IMG/VR virus record: IMGVR_UViG_2541047739_000001
DNA from: a virus
Lineage: Duplodnaviria > Heunggongvirae > Uroviricota > Caudoviricetes
Length of the DNA: 20,412 nucleotides
Strand: one strand, 5' to 3'
Under the pieces are notes generated by a model. The model was not told the origin of the DNA and did not search any database. It saw nothing but the letters and a program-made list of their open reading frames with translations. This document shows, one piece after another, positions 3,201 to 20,412 of the stretch. Position 1 is the stretch's first letter. Each line of letters begins with the position of its first letter. Made by a program: the position numbers and the translations under genes.

Positions 3201-3730
3201 AACGGGCGCGGCGGCAGGTTACCCACCACCACCGAGGCCAGATACTGTGAGGTGGTTTTGCCTTTAATGGTGATGTCTTTTTCCGTCACCCAGCCACCGT
3301 TACGTTGTATCTGAACCAGCAGGCGGACTTCCGACGGATTCCTGTCCCCCTTTGAGGTGGTTTCCACCAGTGCCTGCACGCCGAAGGTAAAACGCAGTCG
3401 GTCAATGTTTGCCGACGTGATGGCCCGGGTGATCGGCGTGTCATATTTCACTTCCGTACCCAGCACCGTCTCGGAGCCGGAGGATTCAAATCCCTCCGGC
3501 GGAGTCTGCTCCTGCTCACCTGCCCGGAACACCACCGTGACACCGGAGATGTTGGTATTCCCCTCAGTGTCCAGCACCGGCGTACTGTTCAGCAGCACGC
3601 TTTTTAATCCATCCACCGGACCTTCAATCGGCCCTTCACTGATGGCATCAATCACACTCAGCAACTGCGTAGATTTCAGGTTGTCCTTCGCTTCGCGCGG
3701 GGTATGCCCCTTACTGCTTCCTTTACCCAT
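251..3730 (-). CDS. J: Tail tip / central tail fiber host specificity protein J
   Basis: 1159 aa ORF with ATG start. N-terminus [58 protein letters not shown] and most of the length match lambda J as recalled; the C-terminal part diverges. Confidence 0.95.
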
Positions 3731-5107: not shown

Positions 5108-5806
5108 TTACTGCGAAAGTTTGTTAATAGAAAGGAAGCCGCCAAAGTTGCCGACATTATTGCGAAACTTACAACCACTCAGGCATTTGCTGCATTTATC
5201 CTTCGTGATATCGGACGTCGGCTGGTCATATTCATCCGCGACCGCCGGACCGCTATAACCGCACTCATCGCCGCGATAGGTCCAGGTGCAGGTGTTGGCC
5301 AGCATGATACGTCCCGGAAAAACAGCGCCATCCGTTTCAGTCGGCGTGGACAGTACAAAGGAGGCACTCACCGCGCTCAGTTCGCTGCACTGCTCGATGC
5401 GCCAGCGGCTGATCACCTCCTGCTCCGGATCGGCGTCACTGTTTCCGTTGACGAAGTTCACCGCATCCAGAAAACGGGCGTAAACCTTACGCCGGACCAC
5501 CGTTCCGCCGACCAGACTCTGCAGATCTTCCGCCATCCCGGTGACCATGCCGTACAGGTTAGAAACCGTCAGCGTGGGGCGCGTACTGGTGCCTTTGCCA
5601 TTCAGTTCGAAACCACTCCCCTGAATGGGATATGCCTGATACTGTCGCCCCTGCCAGGTGACCGGCTCACCTTTTTCGTTCTGCTCATTACAGAAAAAAT
5701 AACGTTCTCCACCAACCTCTGTCAGATCGATTTCCCAGAGCACCACGCTGGCAGACTGCTCCGCACGGGTGCATTCATTCAGTGTTTCCTGTCGGATATC
5801 CTGCAT
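5108..5806 (-). CDS. L: Tail tip protein L
   Basis: 232 aa, ATG start overlapping the M stop (ATGA). Sequence matches lambda L as recalled, including the C-terminal Cys cluster CSKCLSGC. Confidence 0.93.
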   Translation of the reverse strand: MQDIRQETLNECTRAEQSASVVLWEIDLTEVGGERYFFCNEQNEKGEPVTWQGRQYQAYPIQGSGFELNGKGTSTRPTLTVSNLYGMVTGMAEDLQSLVGGTVVRRKVYARFLDAVNFVNGNSDADPEQEVISRWRIEQCSELSAVSASFVLSTPTETDGAVFPGRIMLANTCTWTYRGDECGYSGPAVADEYDQPTSDITKDKCSKCLSGCKFRNNVGNFGGFLSINKLSQ

Positions 5807-6135
5807 CAGTTCACCACCTGCTTAAACTCCGCGCTGAACTCAACGCGCAACATACTGACCCGCGACGACCATTTTGCGCAGGTCACCTTTATCTGCCGGT
5901 AGCCATAAGGCGGCGTCCACAGAAAGGCCTTCCAGCCCCCGTGCTCAGCCAGAAACGACTCCAGCGCCGTGGCCTCCCAACGGGGAACAGAAAGCGTCAC
6001 GCTGTACGTTTTCAGGTCAGTGTTCAGCCCGGCAGGCGCTCGCTGGGAATAGCCATCACCAAAGCGCACCTTTCTTACGGAAGGGGCCGAAGCCACATCC
6101 ATACCGGGTTTCACTTTCCAGCGGAAGGTTTTCAT
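5806..6135 (-). CDS. M: Tail tip protein M
   Basis: 109 aa, MKTFRWKVKPGMDVASAPSVRKVRFGDGYSQRAPAGLN matches lambda M as recalled. ATGA overlap with the H stop. Confidence 0.93.
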   Translation of the reverse strand: MKTFRWKVKPGMDVASAPSVRKVRFGDGYSQRAPAGLNTDLKTYSVTLSVPRWEATALESFLAEHGGWKAFLWTPPYGYRQIKVTCAKWSSRVSMLRVEFSAEFKQVVN

Positions 6136-18652: not shown

Positions 18653-18865
18653 TTACTGCTCACTCCATACAAAATCATCGCTTCCCTTTCGATAAGAGCC
18701 GTAATGCACTTCATATCCATCGCCAACCATTTTTGCTTTTGTCTCGGCAACCTCTTTTGTTGCATAGACGCCTACAAGATGCCATGGCGATCCTTTAACA
18801 ACAGCCCATCCTTTAACCCAACCTTTGTTGATTGGATCTGGCTCTAATCCTTCCGCAATAAACAT
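18653..18865 (-). CDS. Hypothetical 70 aa protein (late-region moron candidate)
   Basis: ATG start with strong AAGGAGA 6 nt upstream. AT-rich compared with the structural genes. No family recognised by eye. Confidence 0.6.
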   Translation of the reverse strand: MFIAEGLEPDPINKGWVKGWAVVKGSPWHLVGVYATKEVAETKAKMVGDGYEVHYGSYRKGSDDFVWSEQ

Positions 18866-18906: not shown

Positions 18907-19131
18907 TCAGGAAACAGGCAACAATGTCGCTGATACAATCCCCGCCATATTTGCATTCAGATCACATTCAACAGAGATTTCTTCATCCGTGGCATCCACT
19001 TCATATGTTCGTGAATAACATTCCGTGCATTTACCACTGAATGTGCCTTCAGCCAGAACACGCCCACGCTGTAAAACCCGGAACGGAATTGTTCCGTTAA
19101 AGGGCTTTACGGTTACCAGTAATTTCTTCAT
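18907..19131 (-). CDS. Hypothetical 74 aa protein (late-region moron candidate)
   Basis: ATG start with GGAGGA 4 nt upstream, 23 nt after the Rz stop. Contains a CxxC pair and a third Cys. No family recognised. Confidence 0.6.
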   Translation of the reverse strand: MKKLLVTVKPFNGTIPFRVLQRGRVLAEGTFSGKCTECYSRTYEVDATDEEISVECDLNANMAGIVSATLLPVS

Positions 19132-19154: not shown

Positions 19155-19619
19155 CTACTTAATGCACTGGGTGCGGATATATTCCTGCAATCCCCGAATC
19201 ATTCTGTCGCTGGTTGCGATTCGCTCTCTGAGGGTGAAATAATCCCGTTGAGCGGCGTCAGTAAGTCCGGGGCGGGCTGCATCATCCACGCCGGTGGTGC
19301 CGGTGGCTTCACGCACGGCTGGACAGACTGCTCTGATGCGCAACCGACGACGACCAGCGGCAATATCATCACGCAGAGCATCATTTTCAGCTTTCGCATC
19401 AGCTAACTCCCTTGAGTATTTTTCATCGAGTGCAGCAACATCACGCTGGCGCTGCTGCATATCAGTAATGGTTGCATTTGCCTGCTCCAGCTCACTGACT
19501 TTTTTATCGCGCTGCTCTTTGTAGGTTATGGCGTTATCACGGTAATGATTCAGCCCCAGACTAAGCGCACCACAGGCCACCAGCAGGGCAATGATGACCA
19601 CGCACAGTACGCGGTTCAT
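19155..19619 (-). CDS. Rz: Rz i-spanin (inner membrane spanin subunit)
   Basis: 154 aa with N-terminal transmembrane segment. NHYRDNAITYK.QRDK and RQRDVAALD.KY..ELADAKAENDALRDD.AAGRRRL match lambda Rz as recalled. Confidence 0.92.
   Translation of the reverse strand: MNRVLCVVIIALLVACGALSLGLNHYRDNAITYKEQRDKKVSELEQANATITDMQQRQRDVAALDEKYSRELADAKAENDALRDDIAAGRRRLRIRAVCPAVREATGTTGVDDAARPGLTDAAQRDYFTLRERIATSDRMIRGLQEYIRTQCIK
19199..19399 (-). CDS. Rz1: Rz1 o-spanin lipoprotein, nested in the +1 frame of Rz
   Basis: 66 aa, MRKLKMMLCVMILPLVVVGCASEQ with lipobox VVGC and proline-rich mature part; near-identical to the lambda Rz1 N-terminus as recalled. Lies entirely inside Rz. Confidence 0.88.
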   Translation of the reverse strand: MRKLKMMLCVMILPLVVVGCASEQSVQPCVKPPAPPAWMMQPAPDLLTPLNGIISPSESESQPATE

Positions 19620-19620
19620 T

Positions 19621-19758
19621 TCACCACCAGCGTATCTGACCGATGAAATAACCGGAGGCCATAATCACAAACACCAGCCAGATAAGAATGAACTTCCAGG
19701 TGGATAATTTTTCAGCCATCACTCGAATCTCCCGAATCAGTTTGCTAAAATCAAACAC
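19621..19758 (-). CDS. Small single-pass membrane protein, 32 aa from ATG 19719 or 46 aa from GTG 19758; absent from the supplied ORF track
   Basis: Hand translation: (MFDFSKLIREIRV)MAEKLSTWKFILIWLVFVIMASGYFIGQIRWW. The GTG has AAAGGAGAAA 2 nt upstream; the ATG has GGGAGA 8 nt upstream. The stop TGA lies 1 nt before the Rz ATG (TGGTGGTGAaATG). Confidence 0.5.
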   Translation of the reverse strand: MFDFSKLIREIRVMAEKLSTWKFILIWLVFVIMASGYFIGQIRWW

Positions 19759-19794
19759 ACTTTCTCCTTTGACTTTTCCAGAGTCAGGAAACAC

Positions 19795-19828
19795 AAAACC
19801 CCGCTTGCAGCCAACAAACGGGGTTTTT
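19795..19828 (-). terminator. Terminator-like hairpin between endolysin and the small ORF / Rz
   Basis: Minus strand reads CCCCGTTTG-TTGGCTG-CAAGCGGGG (9 bp stem with one G-U pair) followed by TTTTGTGTTT. It is also flanked by T-runs on the + strand, so it may act in both directions. Confidence 0.5.
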
Positions 19829-19917
19829 ACTTTTATTCACTTAGGTTTTGCCAGTTCTCAGGATTTCGTGTTATCCGTCCGCATTAGCCAACGTCATTTT
19901 TCAACAAAATATTCTGC

Positions 19918-20412
19918 TTATTTGTCAATTCCCCAGCACGCCAGCGCGCTCTCCTGGTCACGCCGTGAGACCTGTCCATAGCAGTTATTTGAACGAATAC
20001 GGCAGTCTCTGCCACCGTCCTTAATCCACCAGCGAATCGCCTCACATGCTCCCCTGCGATCGCCTGCATTAATTCGTTTATAAAACGTCGACGGGAAACA
20101 CTTACCGGGGCCAATGTTATACGGGCAGAATGACGCAATACCCGCTTTCTGTGGTTCAGTCAGTGGCACTTTGATGTTTTTCGCCACCCATGCCAGCGCC
20201 TTATCACGCTCAATGGCGTTAACCTGGTCGCATTTTTCCTTCGACAACTTCATGCCGGGGAGGACAGGCTTACCATCCACCCGGGTGGCTCCACGGCAGA
20301 TGGTCCAGATACCCGCGCCATCACGGTATGCCGTGGTGTGGTTACCTTCCTTTTCATCCAGAAACTGGTCGAGAATGTCAGGCGCAGGCGCACCAGCGGC
20401 AATCAGCGCCAG
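19918..20412 (-). CDS. Endolysin, T4-lysozyme-like (GH24), probably SAR-type; 5' end is beyond the window
   Basis: Frame is open to the window edge. Hand translation upstream of the supplied ORF gives ...LALIAAGAPAPDILDQFLDEKEGNHTTAYRDGAGIWTICRGATRVDGKPV..., i.e. a Gly/Ala-rich SAR-like segment then E...D...T catalytic spacing as in phage 21 R-type lysozymes (from memory). Stop is TAA at 19918-19920. Confidence 0.8.
   Translation of the reverse strand: MALIAAGAPAPDILDQFLDEKEGNHTTAYRDGAGIWTICRGATRVDGKPVLPGMKLSKEKCDQVNAIERDKALAWVAKNIKVPLTEPQKAGIASFCPYNIGPGKCFPSTFYKRINAGDRRGACEAIRWWIKDGGRDCRIRSNNCYGQVSRRDQESALACWGIDK

What the first reader, a model, noticed from the sequence alone, without database searches (positions are those of the whole stretch)
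19621..19758. Untracked small transmembrane ORF wedged between the endolysin and Rz
A 32 aa (ATG) or 46 aa (GTG, strong Shine-Dalgarno) reading frame encodes a single hydrophobic helix (WKFILIWLVFVIMASGYFIG) and ends 1 nt before the Rz start codon. It is too short for the supplied ORF track and lies just after a terminator-like hairpin. Lambda itself has R running straight into Rz, so this is an insertion in the lysis cassette. The endolysin looks SAR-type, whose holin would normally lie upstream of R, so this is unlikely to be the canonical holin. It could be a lysis modulator (antiholin-like or spanin-associated), a small toxic membrane peptide, or a chance ORF.
Basis: seen in the sequence. 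Interest (0 to 1): 0.55.

Follow-up and report, generated by a model that had tools for sequence, protein, structure and literature searches.

The report
Portable phage small membrane-peptide cassette
The small reading frame between the phage cell-wall enzyme gene and the Rz gene is a real, conserved gene for a 45-residue membrane peptide; it belongs to a roughly 215-base cassette (hairpin, ribosome site, gene) found in the late genes of many unrelated phages, and its function has never been tested.

Summary
On the minus strand, a GTG-initiated 45-codon ORF (19758..19621) follows a terminator-like hairpin and ends 1 nt before the Rz ATG.

It is not a chance ORF.
- It matches PHROG 6632 (unknown function) and RefSeq WP_000459345.1 ("hypothetical protein", called inconsistently).
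- This allele is in 924 of 5,426 complete E. coli genomes.
- Homologues occur across Enterobacterales and in Pseudomonas and Azoarcus phages.
- dN/dS is 0.23 in this frame against 0.42-2.1 in the other five.

Homology across contexts starts at the hairpin and stops at the stop codon. The unit is therefore a portable cassette of about 215 bp. It usually sits between endolysin and i-spanin, in lysis cassettes built from unrelated holin, endolysin and spanin families. It also occurs among baseplate, tail and virion genes, and once standing alone among toxin-antitoxin genes.

Codons 3-12 show almost no synonymous change. They coincide with a strong extended -10 promoter on the opposite strand. This predicts a 75-80 nt antisense RNA that covers the ribosome-binding site and ends at the hairpin.

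My best reading is a late-expressed, silenced-in-lysogen, membrane-active accessory peptide (N-in/C-out). It is not a holin or a spanin. Function and antisense RNA are inferred, not shown.

The parts
19621..19758 (-). Small gene: GTG start, 45 aa plus TGA. Predicted N-terminal amphipathic helix (residues 4-17), a kink, then a transmembrane helix (residues 20-43), ending in RWW.
   Evidence: ORF; PHROG 6632, E=1.4e-29, full length; RefSeq CDS WP_000459345.1; dN/dS 0.23; AlphaFold pLDDT 82.7, helices 4-17 and 20-43; hydropathy, charge bias.
19764..19769 (-). Shine-Dalgarno sequence AAGGAG, 5 nt upstream of the GTG.
   Evidence: A GGAG-type SD is present in 38 of the 40 distinct units and in the four further loci examined; L116 and L118 lack a clear one.
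19795..19828 (.). Hairpin 1: a GC-rich stem-loop flanked by an A-run and a T-run, so it looks like a terminator on both strands. It marks the 5' edge of the conserved cassette.
   Evidence: terminator scan, minus strand; folds in all 40 distinct units on both strands; 11 pairs, 96% paired, 5 pairs with compensatory changes, 0/500 shuffles reach the covariation score; cross-context homology begins here.
19770..19786 (-). Spacer with a possible small second hairpin (TGACT..AGTCA here; CCTTG..CAAGG, CCTG..CAGG, CATG..CATG or CCTTCTG..CAGAAGG elsewhere). Its 3' arm abuts or overlaps the SD.
   Evidence: Support is weak: 88% paired and only 1 of 5 pairs with a compensatory change.
19717..19719 (-). 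Met14 ATG, invariant within the close family (22/22), preceded by GGGAG 9 nt upstream. It is a possible second start that would give the 32-aa form.
   Evidence: Not invariant in remote homologues.
19723..19751 (+). Predicted antisense sigma-70 promoter inside codons 3-12: -35 TCGAAT (19723-19728), 17-bp spacer, extended -10 TGCTAAAAT (19743-19751).
   Evidence: second-best score of 40,752 positions in the window; same position is the best antisense site in most homologous units; top site of the whole 5.1-kb Pseudomonas phage locus; codons AGC 22/22, CGA 22/22, GAT 21/21, TTT 17/17 invariant at synonymous sites; TGCTAAAAT or TGCTAGAAT kept in remote homologues at 40% and 55% GC. No RNA data.
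19757..19837 (+). Predicted cis-antisense RNA of about 75-80 nt. It would start at or near the complement of the GTG, cover the SD and spacer, and end at hairpin 1 plus TTTTTACTTTTATT.
   Evidence: coordinates and fold, -21.9 kcal/mol. Inference only. No Rfam family reached its gathering score; best match E=0.023.
19617..19629 (-). Coupling junction TGG TGG TGA A ATG: the ORF stop lies 1 nt before the Rz start. GGTGGTGA resembles an SD for the downstream gene.
   Evidence: The same 1-nt spacing occurs before unrelated downstream genes: Phage_lysis, DUF2514 and DUF2570 spanins, a methyltransferase, and a 117-aa baseplate-region protein with no Pfam hit on record.
19155..19619 (-). Rz i-spanin (154 aa), with the Rz1 o-spanin embedded at 19199..19399. 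This is the downstream neighbour, not part of the cassette.
   Evidence: PF03245 E=8e-47; phrog_13.
19918..20412 (-). 3' part of the GH24 lysozyme R, which runs off the window end. This is the upstream neighbour, not part of the cassette.
   Evidence: full-length sequence with a SAR-like N-terminus in the identical locus L001.

Best explanation
This is a genuine gene for a 45-residue, GTG-initiated inner-membrane peptide. It has a cytoplasmic amphipathic helix, one transmembrane helix and a three-residue RWW tail, with N-in/C-out topology.

It is carried on a self-contained cassette of about 215 bp with these parts:
- a bidirectional terminator hairpin;
- a spacer with a strong ribosome-binding site;
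- the ORF;
- a 3' end (TGGTGGTGA-N-ATG) that hands ribosomes on to the next gene.

The cassette has spread by recombination into late operons of many unrelated tailed phages. Its commonest position is between the endolysin and the i-spanin.

Shown here: the gene is conserved and under purifying selection, the hairpin is kept by compensatory changes, the cassette has sharp boundaries, and it recurs in different contexts.

Inferred:
1. The peptide is made only when late transcription reads through the hairpin. In lambdoid phages that would be Q-antiterminated transcription.
2. In lysogens, leaky expression is blocked by the terminator. A 75-80 nt cis-antisense RNA adds a second block. It would start from an extended -10 promoter inside codons 3-12, cover the ribosome-binding site, and stop at the same hairpin.
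3. Such tight silencing, the non-ATG start and the hydrophobic product imply a peptide that acts on the membrane and harms the host.
4. Its most likely use to the phage is as an accessory late or lysis factor that perturbs the energised membrane and so tunes lysis timing. It is not a holin, antiholin or spanin with a dedicated partner.
For: Real gene:
- PHROG 6632, E=1.4e-29 over the full length.
- RefSeq CDS in some genomes.
- 79 clusters at 90% identity with E<=10 and 55 clusters at 50% identity with E<=0.001.
- dN/dS 0.23 overall and 0.11 in codons 21-45, against 0.42-2.1 in the other five frames.
- The allele is in 924 of 5,426 complete E. coli genomes.

Cassette boundaries: cross-context homology starts at the hairpin and ends at the stop codon.

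Hairpin: present in all 40 distinct units. 5 of 11 pairs show compensatory changes, and no shuffle of 500 reaches the observed covariation score.

Contexts:
- After an endolysin (GH24, GH19, or the 137/138-aa P2-type protein of L018 and L116) or, in L107-L110, after a 93-aa ORF that follows an M15 peptidase, and before a Phage_lysis, DUF2514 or DUF2570/LysC spanin; in L118 after an M15 peptidase with no recognisable spanin downstream.
- Baseplate genes.
- Tail genes.
- Podovirus-like virion genes.
- Standing alone between opposite-strand toxin-antitoxin genes.

Coupling: 1-nt stop-to-start spacing before unrelated downstream genes.

Start codon: GTG in 21 of 22 distinct 45-codon ORFs, and TTG in three other variants.

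Antisense element:
- Synonymous divergence pS is 0.175 in codons 3-12 against 0.67-0.72 in codons 15-45.
- The invariant third positions are those that build TG-n-TAAAAT and the T-x-G of a -35 at 17 bp.
- This is the second-best promoter score in the 20-kb window.
- It is the best score in the Pseudomonas phage locus.
- It is retained in remote homologues at 40% and 55% GC.
- The hairpin is followed by a T-run on that strand.

Topology and fold: two helices, pLDDT 82.7; 5 K/R on the N side against 1 on the C side; amphipathic moment 0.66.
Against: - There is no expression, RNA or phenotype data for any family member. Two literature searches aimed at this ORF, one supplement search and an sRNA review turned up nothing.
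- I devised the promoter scoring scheme, including the TG bonus, after seeing the candidate site. The -35 matches only 3 of 6 positions, and it is lost in the Azoarcus and L123 copies.
- The synonymous constraint could instead reflect an unstructured, AT-rich start of the coding region, an internal ribosome site for Met14 (GGGAG 9 nt upstream), or mRNA structure.
- Strand-specific wobble pairs in the hairpin do not favour either strand consistently.
- A terminator inside baseplate operons of phages not known to use antitermination is awkward for the read-through model.
- No sense-strand promoter was found in the cassette. It is therefore unclear how the stand-alone copies (L123, L124) are transcribed.
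- Some genomes carry frameshifted copies (P0026, P0027, P0031, P0036).
- The recurrent endolysin-spanin position may reflect a recombination hot spot rather than function. That junction also holds ant, methylase and other small ORFs; LT-II toxin genes lie further upstream in the L107/L109 cassettes, between two endolysin genes.
Confidence: 0.5

Rival explanations
1. Selfish type I toxin-antitoxin-like module. The peptide is a membrane toxin and the antisense RNA is its antitoxin. The cassette persists because it stabilises itself or its prophage (addiction or abortive infection), not because it helps lysis.
For: - The product is small and hydrophobic, with a weak start codon.
- A predicted antisense promoter and terminator cover the ribosome-binding site.
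- The cassette is mobile and present in 1-6 copies per genome.
- One lineage sits alone among ParE, RelB/YafQ and HicB toxin-antitoxin genes.
- A hok/gef gene lies about 2.7 kb downstream in the same baseplate region in L117.
Against: - No toxin promoter was found in the cassette.
- In the phage-operon contexts examined the ORF is co-directional with the flanking late genes and often translationally coupled to the next one. This suggests operon-dependent expression.
- There is no match to any Rfam antitoxin RNA or known toxin family.
- Toxicity has not been tested.
Confidence: 0.2
2. Dedicated lysis regulator. In this reading the peptide is an antiholin-like or releasin-like factor, or a partner of the spanin transmembrane domain, and it acts on a specific lysis protein.
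For: - In roughly 10 of about 16 sampled lineages the ORF is in a lysis cassette. Wherever a recognisable spanin is present (most of them) it lies after the endolysin (directly, or after one further ORF) and before that spanin, and it is often coupled to it.
- It has the same N-in/C-out single-pass topology as the i-spanin anchor.
- A possible dual start (GTG and Met14) recalls holin/antiholin pairs.
Against: - The holin, endolysin and spanin families next to it are unrelated from one cassette to another.
- The cassette also sits in baseplate, tail and virion modules and stands alone.
- Many lysis cassettes with the same R and Rz lack it.
Confidence: 0.15
3. Lysogenic-conversion moron. The peptide would be an inner-membrane protein expressed from the prophage that protects the host, for example by superinfection exclusion at the DNA-entry step, as HK97 gp15 does.
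For: - It behaves like a moron: an extra gene between genes that are adjacent in relatives.
- It is a small inner-membrane protein.
- It lies next to envelope-penetrating virion genes in several phages.
Against: - There is no promoter for expression in the lysogen.
- The terminator lies upstream rather than downstream of the gene.
- The predicted antisense RNA would silence it rather than express it.
- There is no PADLOC match.
Confidence: 0.1
4. Mainly an RNA or translation device. The hairpin plus ORF would serve as an insulator and leader that re-starts translation of the downstream gene after a terminator, and the peptide itself would be dispensable. IsrK-orf45-anrP in Gifsy-1 works this way.
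For: - The 1-nt stop-start junction and the SD-like TGGTGGTGA.
- Nucleotide-level constraint in the 5' third of the ORF.
- A published precedent for a terminator read-through transcript with a coupled small ORF (PMC4825925).
Against: - The amino-acid sequence is under clear purifying selection, with plentiful synonymous change in codons 15-45 (dN/dS 0.11-0.16). For orf45 the authors report a conserved nucleotide sequence but a variable protein.
- Several copies are not coupled to any downstream gene.
Confidence: 0.05

Closest known systems
PHROG 6632 / RefSeq WP_000459345.1 / UniRef A0A0K3FG97 ("hypothetical" or "phage protein")
   Same: It is the same protein family, with a full-length match at E=1.4e-29. 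The exact sequence is already in public databases.
   Different: These entries carry no function, no note of the hairpin or cassette, and no note of the context. PGAP calls the gene in some genomes and omits it in identical DNA elsewhere.
Phage P22 sar RNA / ant, and E. coli SymR / SymE (a cis-antisense RNA whose promoter lies in the first codons of its target gene and covers the ribosome-binding site; from my own knowledge of these systems)
   Same: The predicted layout is the same: a promoter inside the 5' codons of the target on the opposite strand, a short RNA of about 70-80 nt complementary to the SD and start codon, and a Rho-independent terminator just upstream of the target gene.
   Different: The RNA here is only predicted. 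The target is a 45-aa membrane peptide, not an antirepressor or an endonuclease-like toxin. There is no sequence or Rfam relationship.
Type I toxin-antitoxin systems (Hok/Sok, Ibs/Sib, TisB/IstR, ZorO/OrzO)
   Same: A hydrophobic single-helix peptide of under 60 aa, a predicted antisense RNA over the translation start, and multiple copies in mobile DNA.
   Different: No toxin promoter was found. The ORF is embedded co-directionally in phage late operons and coupled to the next gene. There is no homology to known toxin or antitoxin families. Toxicity is untested.
Morons of lambdoid phages (HK97 gp15, lambda bor/lom; defined by Juhala et al. 2000; from my own knowledge)
   Same: An extra gene sitting between two genes that are adjacent in related phages, and a small envelope protein. 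The R-Rz junction also hosts other insertions such as ant and a methylase.
   Different: Classic morons carry their own promoter upstream and a terminator downstream. This cassette has the terminator upstream, no sense promoter, and a built-in hand-over to the downstream gene.
Accessory lysis membrane proteins: lambda S107 antiholin, P2 LysA, Mu gp25 releasin (PMC9239132 was listed; the details are from my own knowledge)
   Same: A small membrane protein encoded in a lysis cassette next to a (probably SAR) endolysin, with possibly two start codons.
   Different: There is no sequence relationship to any annotated holin or lysis PHROG or Pfam family. It is not tied to any one holin or endolysin type, and it also occurs outside lysis cassettes.
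IsrK-orf45-anrP of Gifsy-1 (PMC4825925)
   Same: A terminator that is partly read through, followed by a ~45-codon ORF (named orf45) whose stop overlaps the next gene's start so that the two are translationally coupled. It lies in a prophage late region.
   Different: The authors report that orf45 has a conserved nucleotide sequence but a variable protein. Here the protein is conserved (dN/dS 0.23). No upstream sRNA promoter is part of this cassette.

Membership tests
PHROG 6632 (phage protein family, unknown function) | Full-length profile match | tested here: met
   E=1.4e-29; residues 13-57 of the 57-aa frame align to profile positions 1-45 of 45.
Holin | Sequence membership of a described holin family (Pfam, PHROG or NCBIfam) | tested here: not met
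   No Pfam or NCBIfam hit, and the only PHROG is of unknown function. A class II holin already lies upstream of R in identical loci.
Holin | Small membrane protein with at least one transmembrane domain, encoded in a lysis cassette | tested here: met
   One transmembrane helix, located between R and Rz. The family also occurs outside lysis cassettes.
Holin | Forms lethal membrane lesions at a programmed time and releases or activates the endolysin | not testable with these tools
   This needs induction and lysis-curve genetics.
Spanin (i-, o- or u-spanin) | i-spanin: an N-terminal transmembrane domain plus a long periplasmic coiled coil. o- and u-spanins: a lipobox lipoprotein signal. | tested here: not met
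   Only 3 residues (RWW) follow the transmembrane helix, and there is no lipobox. Rz and Rz1 lie immediately downstream and are intact.
Type I toxin-antitoxin system | Hydrophobic toxin peptide of under about 60 aa | tested here: met
   45 aa, transmembrane helix at residues 24-42, Kyte-Doolittle mean 2.13.
Type I toxin-antitoxin system | Antisense RNA antitoxin that pairs with the toxin mRNA | tested here: inconclusive
   A conserved extended -10 promoter and terminator predict a 75-80 nt RNA over the SD and start codon. There is no transcript evidence and no Rfam match.
Type I toxin-antitoxin system | Toxin gene has its own promoter and is toxic when overexpressed | tested here: inconclusive
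   No sense-strand promoter lies in the cassette. Toxicity cannot be tested with these tools.
Moron (as defined by Juhala et al. 2000) | An extra gene between two genes that are adjacent in related phages | tested here: met
   rrrQ and rzpQ overlap in K-12 Qin. The cassette boundaries are sharp.
Moron (as defined by Juhala et al. 2000) | Own sigma-70 promoter upstream and a factor-independent terminator downstream of the gene | tested here: not met
   The terminator lies upstream, no sense promoter was found, and the stop codon abuts the next gene.

The most novel reading that the evidence does not exclude
The cassette is a new kind of mobile "plug-in" gene for phage late operons. It carries three things of its own: an insulating bidirectional terminator, an antisense RNA silencer whose promoter is written into the first codons of the gene, and a 3' end that restores translation of whatever gene it lands in front of. 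Its 45-aa peptide is a membrane-depolarising effector. Phages of all three tail types use it to set lysis timing, and it doubles as a type I toxin in lysogens.
Probability: 0.2. Interest if true: 0.75.

Novelty: new variant of a known kind. Interest (0 to 1): 0.55.

Why it matters
Phage lysis cassettes are usually described as holin, endolysin and spanin. Here a fourth conserved small gene sits in that cassette in about one in six complete E. coli genomes. It is present in Shiga-toxin phages, including the classic H-19B, where it is unannotated, and it has never been studied.

If the peptide tunes lysis timing or membrane integrity, it would affect phage burst size and toxin release from Stx lysogens.

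The cassette design is also of interest: terminator, gene with an embedded antisense promoter, and hand-over to the next gene. It would show how a very small gene can move between unrelated phage operons without harming them. It also illustrates a class of genes that annotation pipelines miss or call inconsistently.

Tried and rejected
- **Known family searches.** Pfam, NCBIfam and PADLOC gave nothing for this ORF or for the other small ORFs in the same slot. A lenient Rfam search gave only sub-threshold noise.
- **Literature.** Searches on accession and PHROG numbers, and on type I toxin-antitoxin plus lysis cassette, found nothing on this ORF, and neither did a review of phage sRNAs. A peptide and DNA string search of the supplements of the Sakai small-gene Ribo-seq paper found no hit. 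One search was wasted because prefix matching returned unrelated papers.
- **Promoter flagged by the scan.** The + strand site at 19636-19665 (CTGACC-18-CATAAT) falls in the variable 3' part of the ORF and is not conserved in homologues. I rejected it as the antisense promoter.
- **A sense promoter in the hairpin or spacer.** None was found by scan or by eye.
- **A superfamily joining this ORF with the other small transmembrane ORFs of the R-Rz slot.** hhalign aligns only the last 14 residues with the "...AIRWW" ORF of phage 705R7 (probability 57%) and nothing with the phrog_1115 type. I make no such claim.
- **Using hairpin wobble pairs to choose the functional strand.** Results were inconsistent between lineages.
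- **K-12 and Sakai Sp15 as sources of experimental data.** Both lack the cassette.
- **The structure model.** It shows two helices and was too simple for a meaningful fold search, so none was run.
Full report
**1. The observation**

The feature is on the minus strand. The window ends with the 3' part of a GH24 lysozyme gene (R, stop at 19918). It is followed by 159 nt of spacer, a small ORF (19758..19621), Rz (19619..19155) with Rz1 embedded (19399..19199), two small unknown ORFs, and then terminase genes.

The small ORF starts with GTG, 5 nt after AAGGAG (19769..19764). It encodes 45 residues: VFDFSKLIREIRVMAEKLSTWKFILIWLVFVIMASGYFIGQIRWW. It ends with TGA one base before the Rz ATG. An in-frame ATG at codon 14 would give the 32-aa form.

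A 34-nt hairpin at 19828..19795 was reported by the terminator scan.

ORFs of this size are common in the region. Reality of the gene has to be judged from comparison with other sequences.

**2. It is a real, conserved gene**

- The frame matches PHROG 6632, a 45-position profile of unknown function, at E=1.4e-29.
- RefSeq annotates it as WP_000459345.1 "hypothetical protein" in some E. coli genomes and leaves identical DNA unannotated in others.
- The exact protein is on at least 1,000 public contigs.
- The 215-nt allele occurs in 924 of 5,426 complete E. coli genomes, in 1-6 copies.
- It is present, mostly unannotated, in Stx1, Stx2a and Stx2c phages, including H-19B, in TL-2011c and in Salmonella phage SPN3UB.
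- Profile searches find 79 clusters at 90% identity with E<=10 and 55 clusters at 50% identity with E<=0.001. They come from Escherichia, Salmonella, Citrobacter, Enterobacter, Klebsiella, Yersinia, Providencia, Brenneria and an Azoarcus genome assembled from a metagenome; genome scans add Symbiopectobacterium and a tblastn search adds Pseudomonas phages.
- The shared motif is x-D-[FI]-S-K-L-I-R-E-[LI]-R-x-M-x-E-K-L-x-x-W-[KR]-F-x-L-I-W...I-x-x-[IV]-[RK]-W-W.
- Over 22 distinct 45-codon alleles, dN/dS is 0.23 in the annotated frame (0.11 in codons 21-45) and 0.42-2.1 in the other five frames.
- The residues before Met14 are conserved in distant homologues, so the long GTG form is translated.
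- A few frameshifted copies exist.

**3. The protein**

- AlphaFold with the family alignment gives helix 4-17, a break at residues 18-19 (Pro19 in most members) and helix 20-43, with mean pLDDT 82.7.
- Residues 24-42 form a transmembrane segment with Kyte-Doolittle mean 2.13.
- Residues 4-17 are amphipathic (moment 0.66).
- Five Lys/Arg precede the helix and one follows it, so N-in/C-out topology is expected, with only RWW outside.
- There is no lipobox and no periplasmic domain, so it is not a spanin.
- It matches no holin family.

**4. It travels as a cassette**

Aligning loci from different contexts shows that similarity begins exactly at the hairpin and ends at the stop codon.

All 40 distinct units examined have the hairpin about 40 nt upstream of the start. 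So do four further homologues: loci L119 and L122-L124.

The stem sequence differs between lineages while pairing is kept. Of 11 pairs, 96% of cells are paired and 5 pairs show compensatory changes. No shuffle of 500 reaches the observed covariation score, and shifted-partner controls collapse.

The hairpin is flanked by an A-run and a T-run, so it looks like a terminator in both directions. A second small stem next to the ribosome-binding site is only weakly supported.

**5. Contexts**

Most lineages have the cassette in a lysis cassette, directly after an endolysin (or, in L107-L110, after one further ORF) and before an i-spanin. The neighbouring genes are unrelated from case to case:
- Holins: class II, Phage_holin_2_3, holin_8/3_7 and holin_3_1.
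- Endolysins: GH24, GH19, M15 peptidase (separated from the cassette by a 93-aa ORF in L107-L110, directly adjacent in L118) and a P2-type enzyme.
- Spanins: Phage_lysis, DUF2514 and DUF2570/LysC.

In many of these lineages the stop codon lies 1 nt before the next start.

The same cassette also lies in other places:
- between baseplate spike and wedge/sheath-initiator genes in SEN34-like myophage prophages;
- among tail genes in Yersinia ruckeri and in Pseudomonas phage YMC11/02/R656;
- next to large virion proteins in podovirus-like elements;
- alone between opposite-strand ParE, RelB and HicB genes near a terminase.

Related lysis cassettes lack it altogether. In K-12 Qin, R abuts Rz. VT2-Sakai and Sakai Sp15 carry ant plus a different small membrane ORF.

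This pattern argues against a dedicated partner among lysis proteins. It fits a moron-like accessory gene of late operons.

**6. A nucleotide-level signal in the first third of the gene**

Synonymous variation is almost absent in codons 3-12:
- AGC 22/22
- CGA 22/22
- GAT 21/21
- TTT 17/17
- AAA 21/22

It is plentiful in codons 22-43. Synonymous divergence pS is 0.175 in the first region against about 0.7 in the second.

On the opposite strand these codons read TCGAAT, then 17 bp, then TGCTAAAAT. That is an extended -10 promoter pointing at the hairpin.

- With a simple sigma-70 weight matrix this site ranks second of 40,752 positions in the window.
- The equivalent site is the best in the whole 5.1-kb Pseudomonas phage locus.
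- The motif persists as TGCTAAAAT or TGCTAGAAT in remote homologues at 40% and 55% GC, even where the amino acids changed.
- The invariant third positions are the ones the promoter needs. The C of AGC gives the G of the TG element. CGA gives the T-x-G of the -35.

Transcription from this site would start opposite the GTG, cover the ribosome-binding site, and stop at the hairpin plus TTTTTACTTTTATT. The product would be a 75-80 nt antisense RNA. This layout is that of P22 sar/ant and SymR/SymE (my own knowledge).

Caveats:
- I chose the scoring scheme after seeing the site.
- The -35 is weak and not universal.
- Selection for an unstructured 5' coding region, or an internal ribosome site for Met14, could contribute to the constraint.
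- There is no transcript evidence and no Rfam match.

**7. Most likely mechanism**

Shown:
- a conserved membrane-peptide gene;
- a structurally conserved hairpin;
- sharp cassette boundaries;
- repeated placement in late operons;
- a tight junction with the next gene.

Inferred:
- The peptide is made only when late transcription passes the hairpin.
- In lysogens, the terminator and the antisense RNA keep it off.
- The non-ATG start (GTG in 21 of 22 distinct 45-codon ORFs, TTG in three other variants) and this double lock suggest a product harmful to the membrane.
- Its benefit to the phage is probably an accessory effect late in infection, most plausibly on the energised membrane and so on lysis timing.

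The rival readings cannot be excluded without experiments. They are a type I toxin-antitoxin-like selfish module, a dedicated lysis regulator, a superinfection-exclusion moron, and a mere coupling leader as in IsrK-orf45-anrP (PMC4825925). The last is the weakest, because the protein sequence itself is under selection.

**8. Novelty**

The protein is already catalogued as hypothetical, so its existence is not new. I found no description of the following:
- the cassette;
- its spread across phage types;
- its recurrent place between endolysin and spanin;
- the embedded antisense promoter.

It is best filed as a new variant of known kinds (morons, antisense-controlled small membrane peptides). 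It is not a member of any defined holin, spanin or type I toxin-antitoxin family.

Noticed in passing
L007 (VT2-Sakai NC_000902.1) 3380-3529; L121 (Sakai Sp15) 5749-5895: A different small single-helix ORF (MISDKLITLVKSLCVLVGISFLVMLVAIFFSTAWRVLTLSGLVG, PHROG 4906, unknown function) ends 7 nt upstream of the Rz ATG in 933W-type Stx phages, after the ant gene. It is unannotated in the VT2-Sakai phage record but is called ECs_5741 in the Sakai chromosome.
   Followed up: partly
L005 (phage vB_EcoS-705R7) 690-1175; L008 (PhiR12_2) 2166-2527: Phage 705R7 has four small transmembrane ORFs in tandem between R and Rz: a PHROG 6632 variant ending IKG, a PHROG 4906 type, a PHROG 1115 type, and an ORF matching PHROG 4493 that ends AIRWW 1 nt before Rz. 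PhiR12_2 has two. The R-Rz junction appears to collect small membrane ORFs.
   Followed up: partly
L107 977-2117; L109 260-1478: In L107, LT-II-type enterotoxin A and B subunit genes (Enterotoxin_a, LT-IIB) lie inside an E. coli prophage lysis cassette, between two endolysin genes. In L109, an ADP-ribosylating toxin A-subunit-like gene (Enterotoxin_a weak, Pertussis_S1) and a 141-aa ORF with no Pfam hit lie upstream of the holin genes. In both loci these genes are upstream of the small-ORF cassette.
   Followed up: no
L117 3543-5961: In an Enterobacter kobei baseplate gene cluster, a block containing a pRha-domain gene and a hok/gef toxin gene begins about 400 nt downstream of the small-ORF cassette, after one intervening 117-aa gene. 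The spot seems to accumulate accessory genes.
   Followed up: no
L124 2126-2250: A good sigma-70 promoter (TTTACA-17-TATCAT) is followed about 70-100 nt later by terminator-like hairpins, upstream of the stand-alone cassette copy. This may be a small RNA gene, or the promoter that feeds that cassette.
   Followed up: no
L119 (Pseudomonas phage YMC11/02/R656) 2674-2790: A second small hydrophobic ORF (MNAKDAGIVGKRLANAALILATGVAIASIIAAIGVVLG) starts 26 nt downstream of the Pseudomonas homologue, mirroring the tandem arrangement in E. coli phage 705R7.
   Followed up: no
window 18907-19131 (-) and 18653-18865 (-): Two conserved small ORFs of unknown function lie between Rz and the DUF1441/terminase genes. 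One is 74 aa (PHROG 2571, matching only the middle of a 291-position profile) and the other is 70 aa (PHROG 4280).
   Followed up: no
window about 10032 (-): The highest sigma-70-like score in the whole window (TTGAAA ... TATAAA/TAAAAT) lies inside the structural-gene region on the minus strand.
   Followed up: no
L001/L002 1251-2381 (outside the window, same prophage type): Between the class II holin and R lie a truncated YdfR-family pseudogene and a 104-aa opposite-strand ORF. The holin and endolysin genes are therefore about 1.3 kb apart in this prophage type.
   Followed up: no
several loci: window 19617-19623; L009, L013, L107 and L116 4138/4140 or 3138/3140: I cannot explain why the cassette's stop codon lies exactly 1 nt before the start codon of unrelated downstream genes (three spanin families, a methyltransferase, a baseplate-region gene). 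This hints at a precise insertion or recombination mechanism at start codons.
   Followed up: partly
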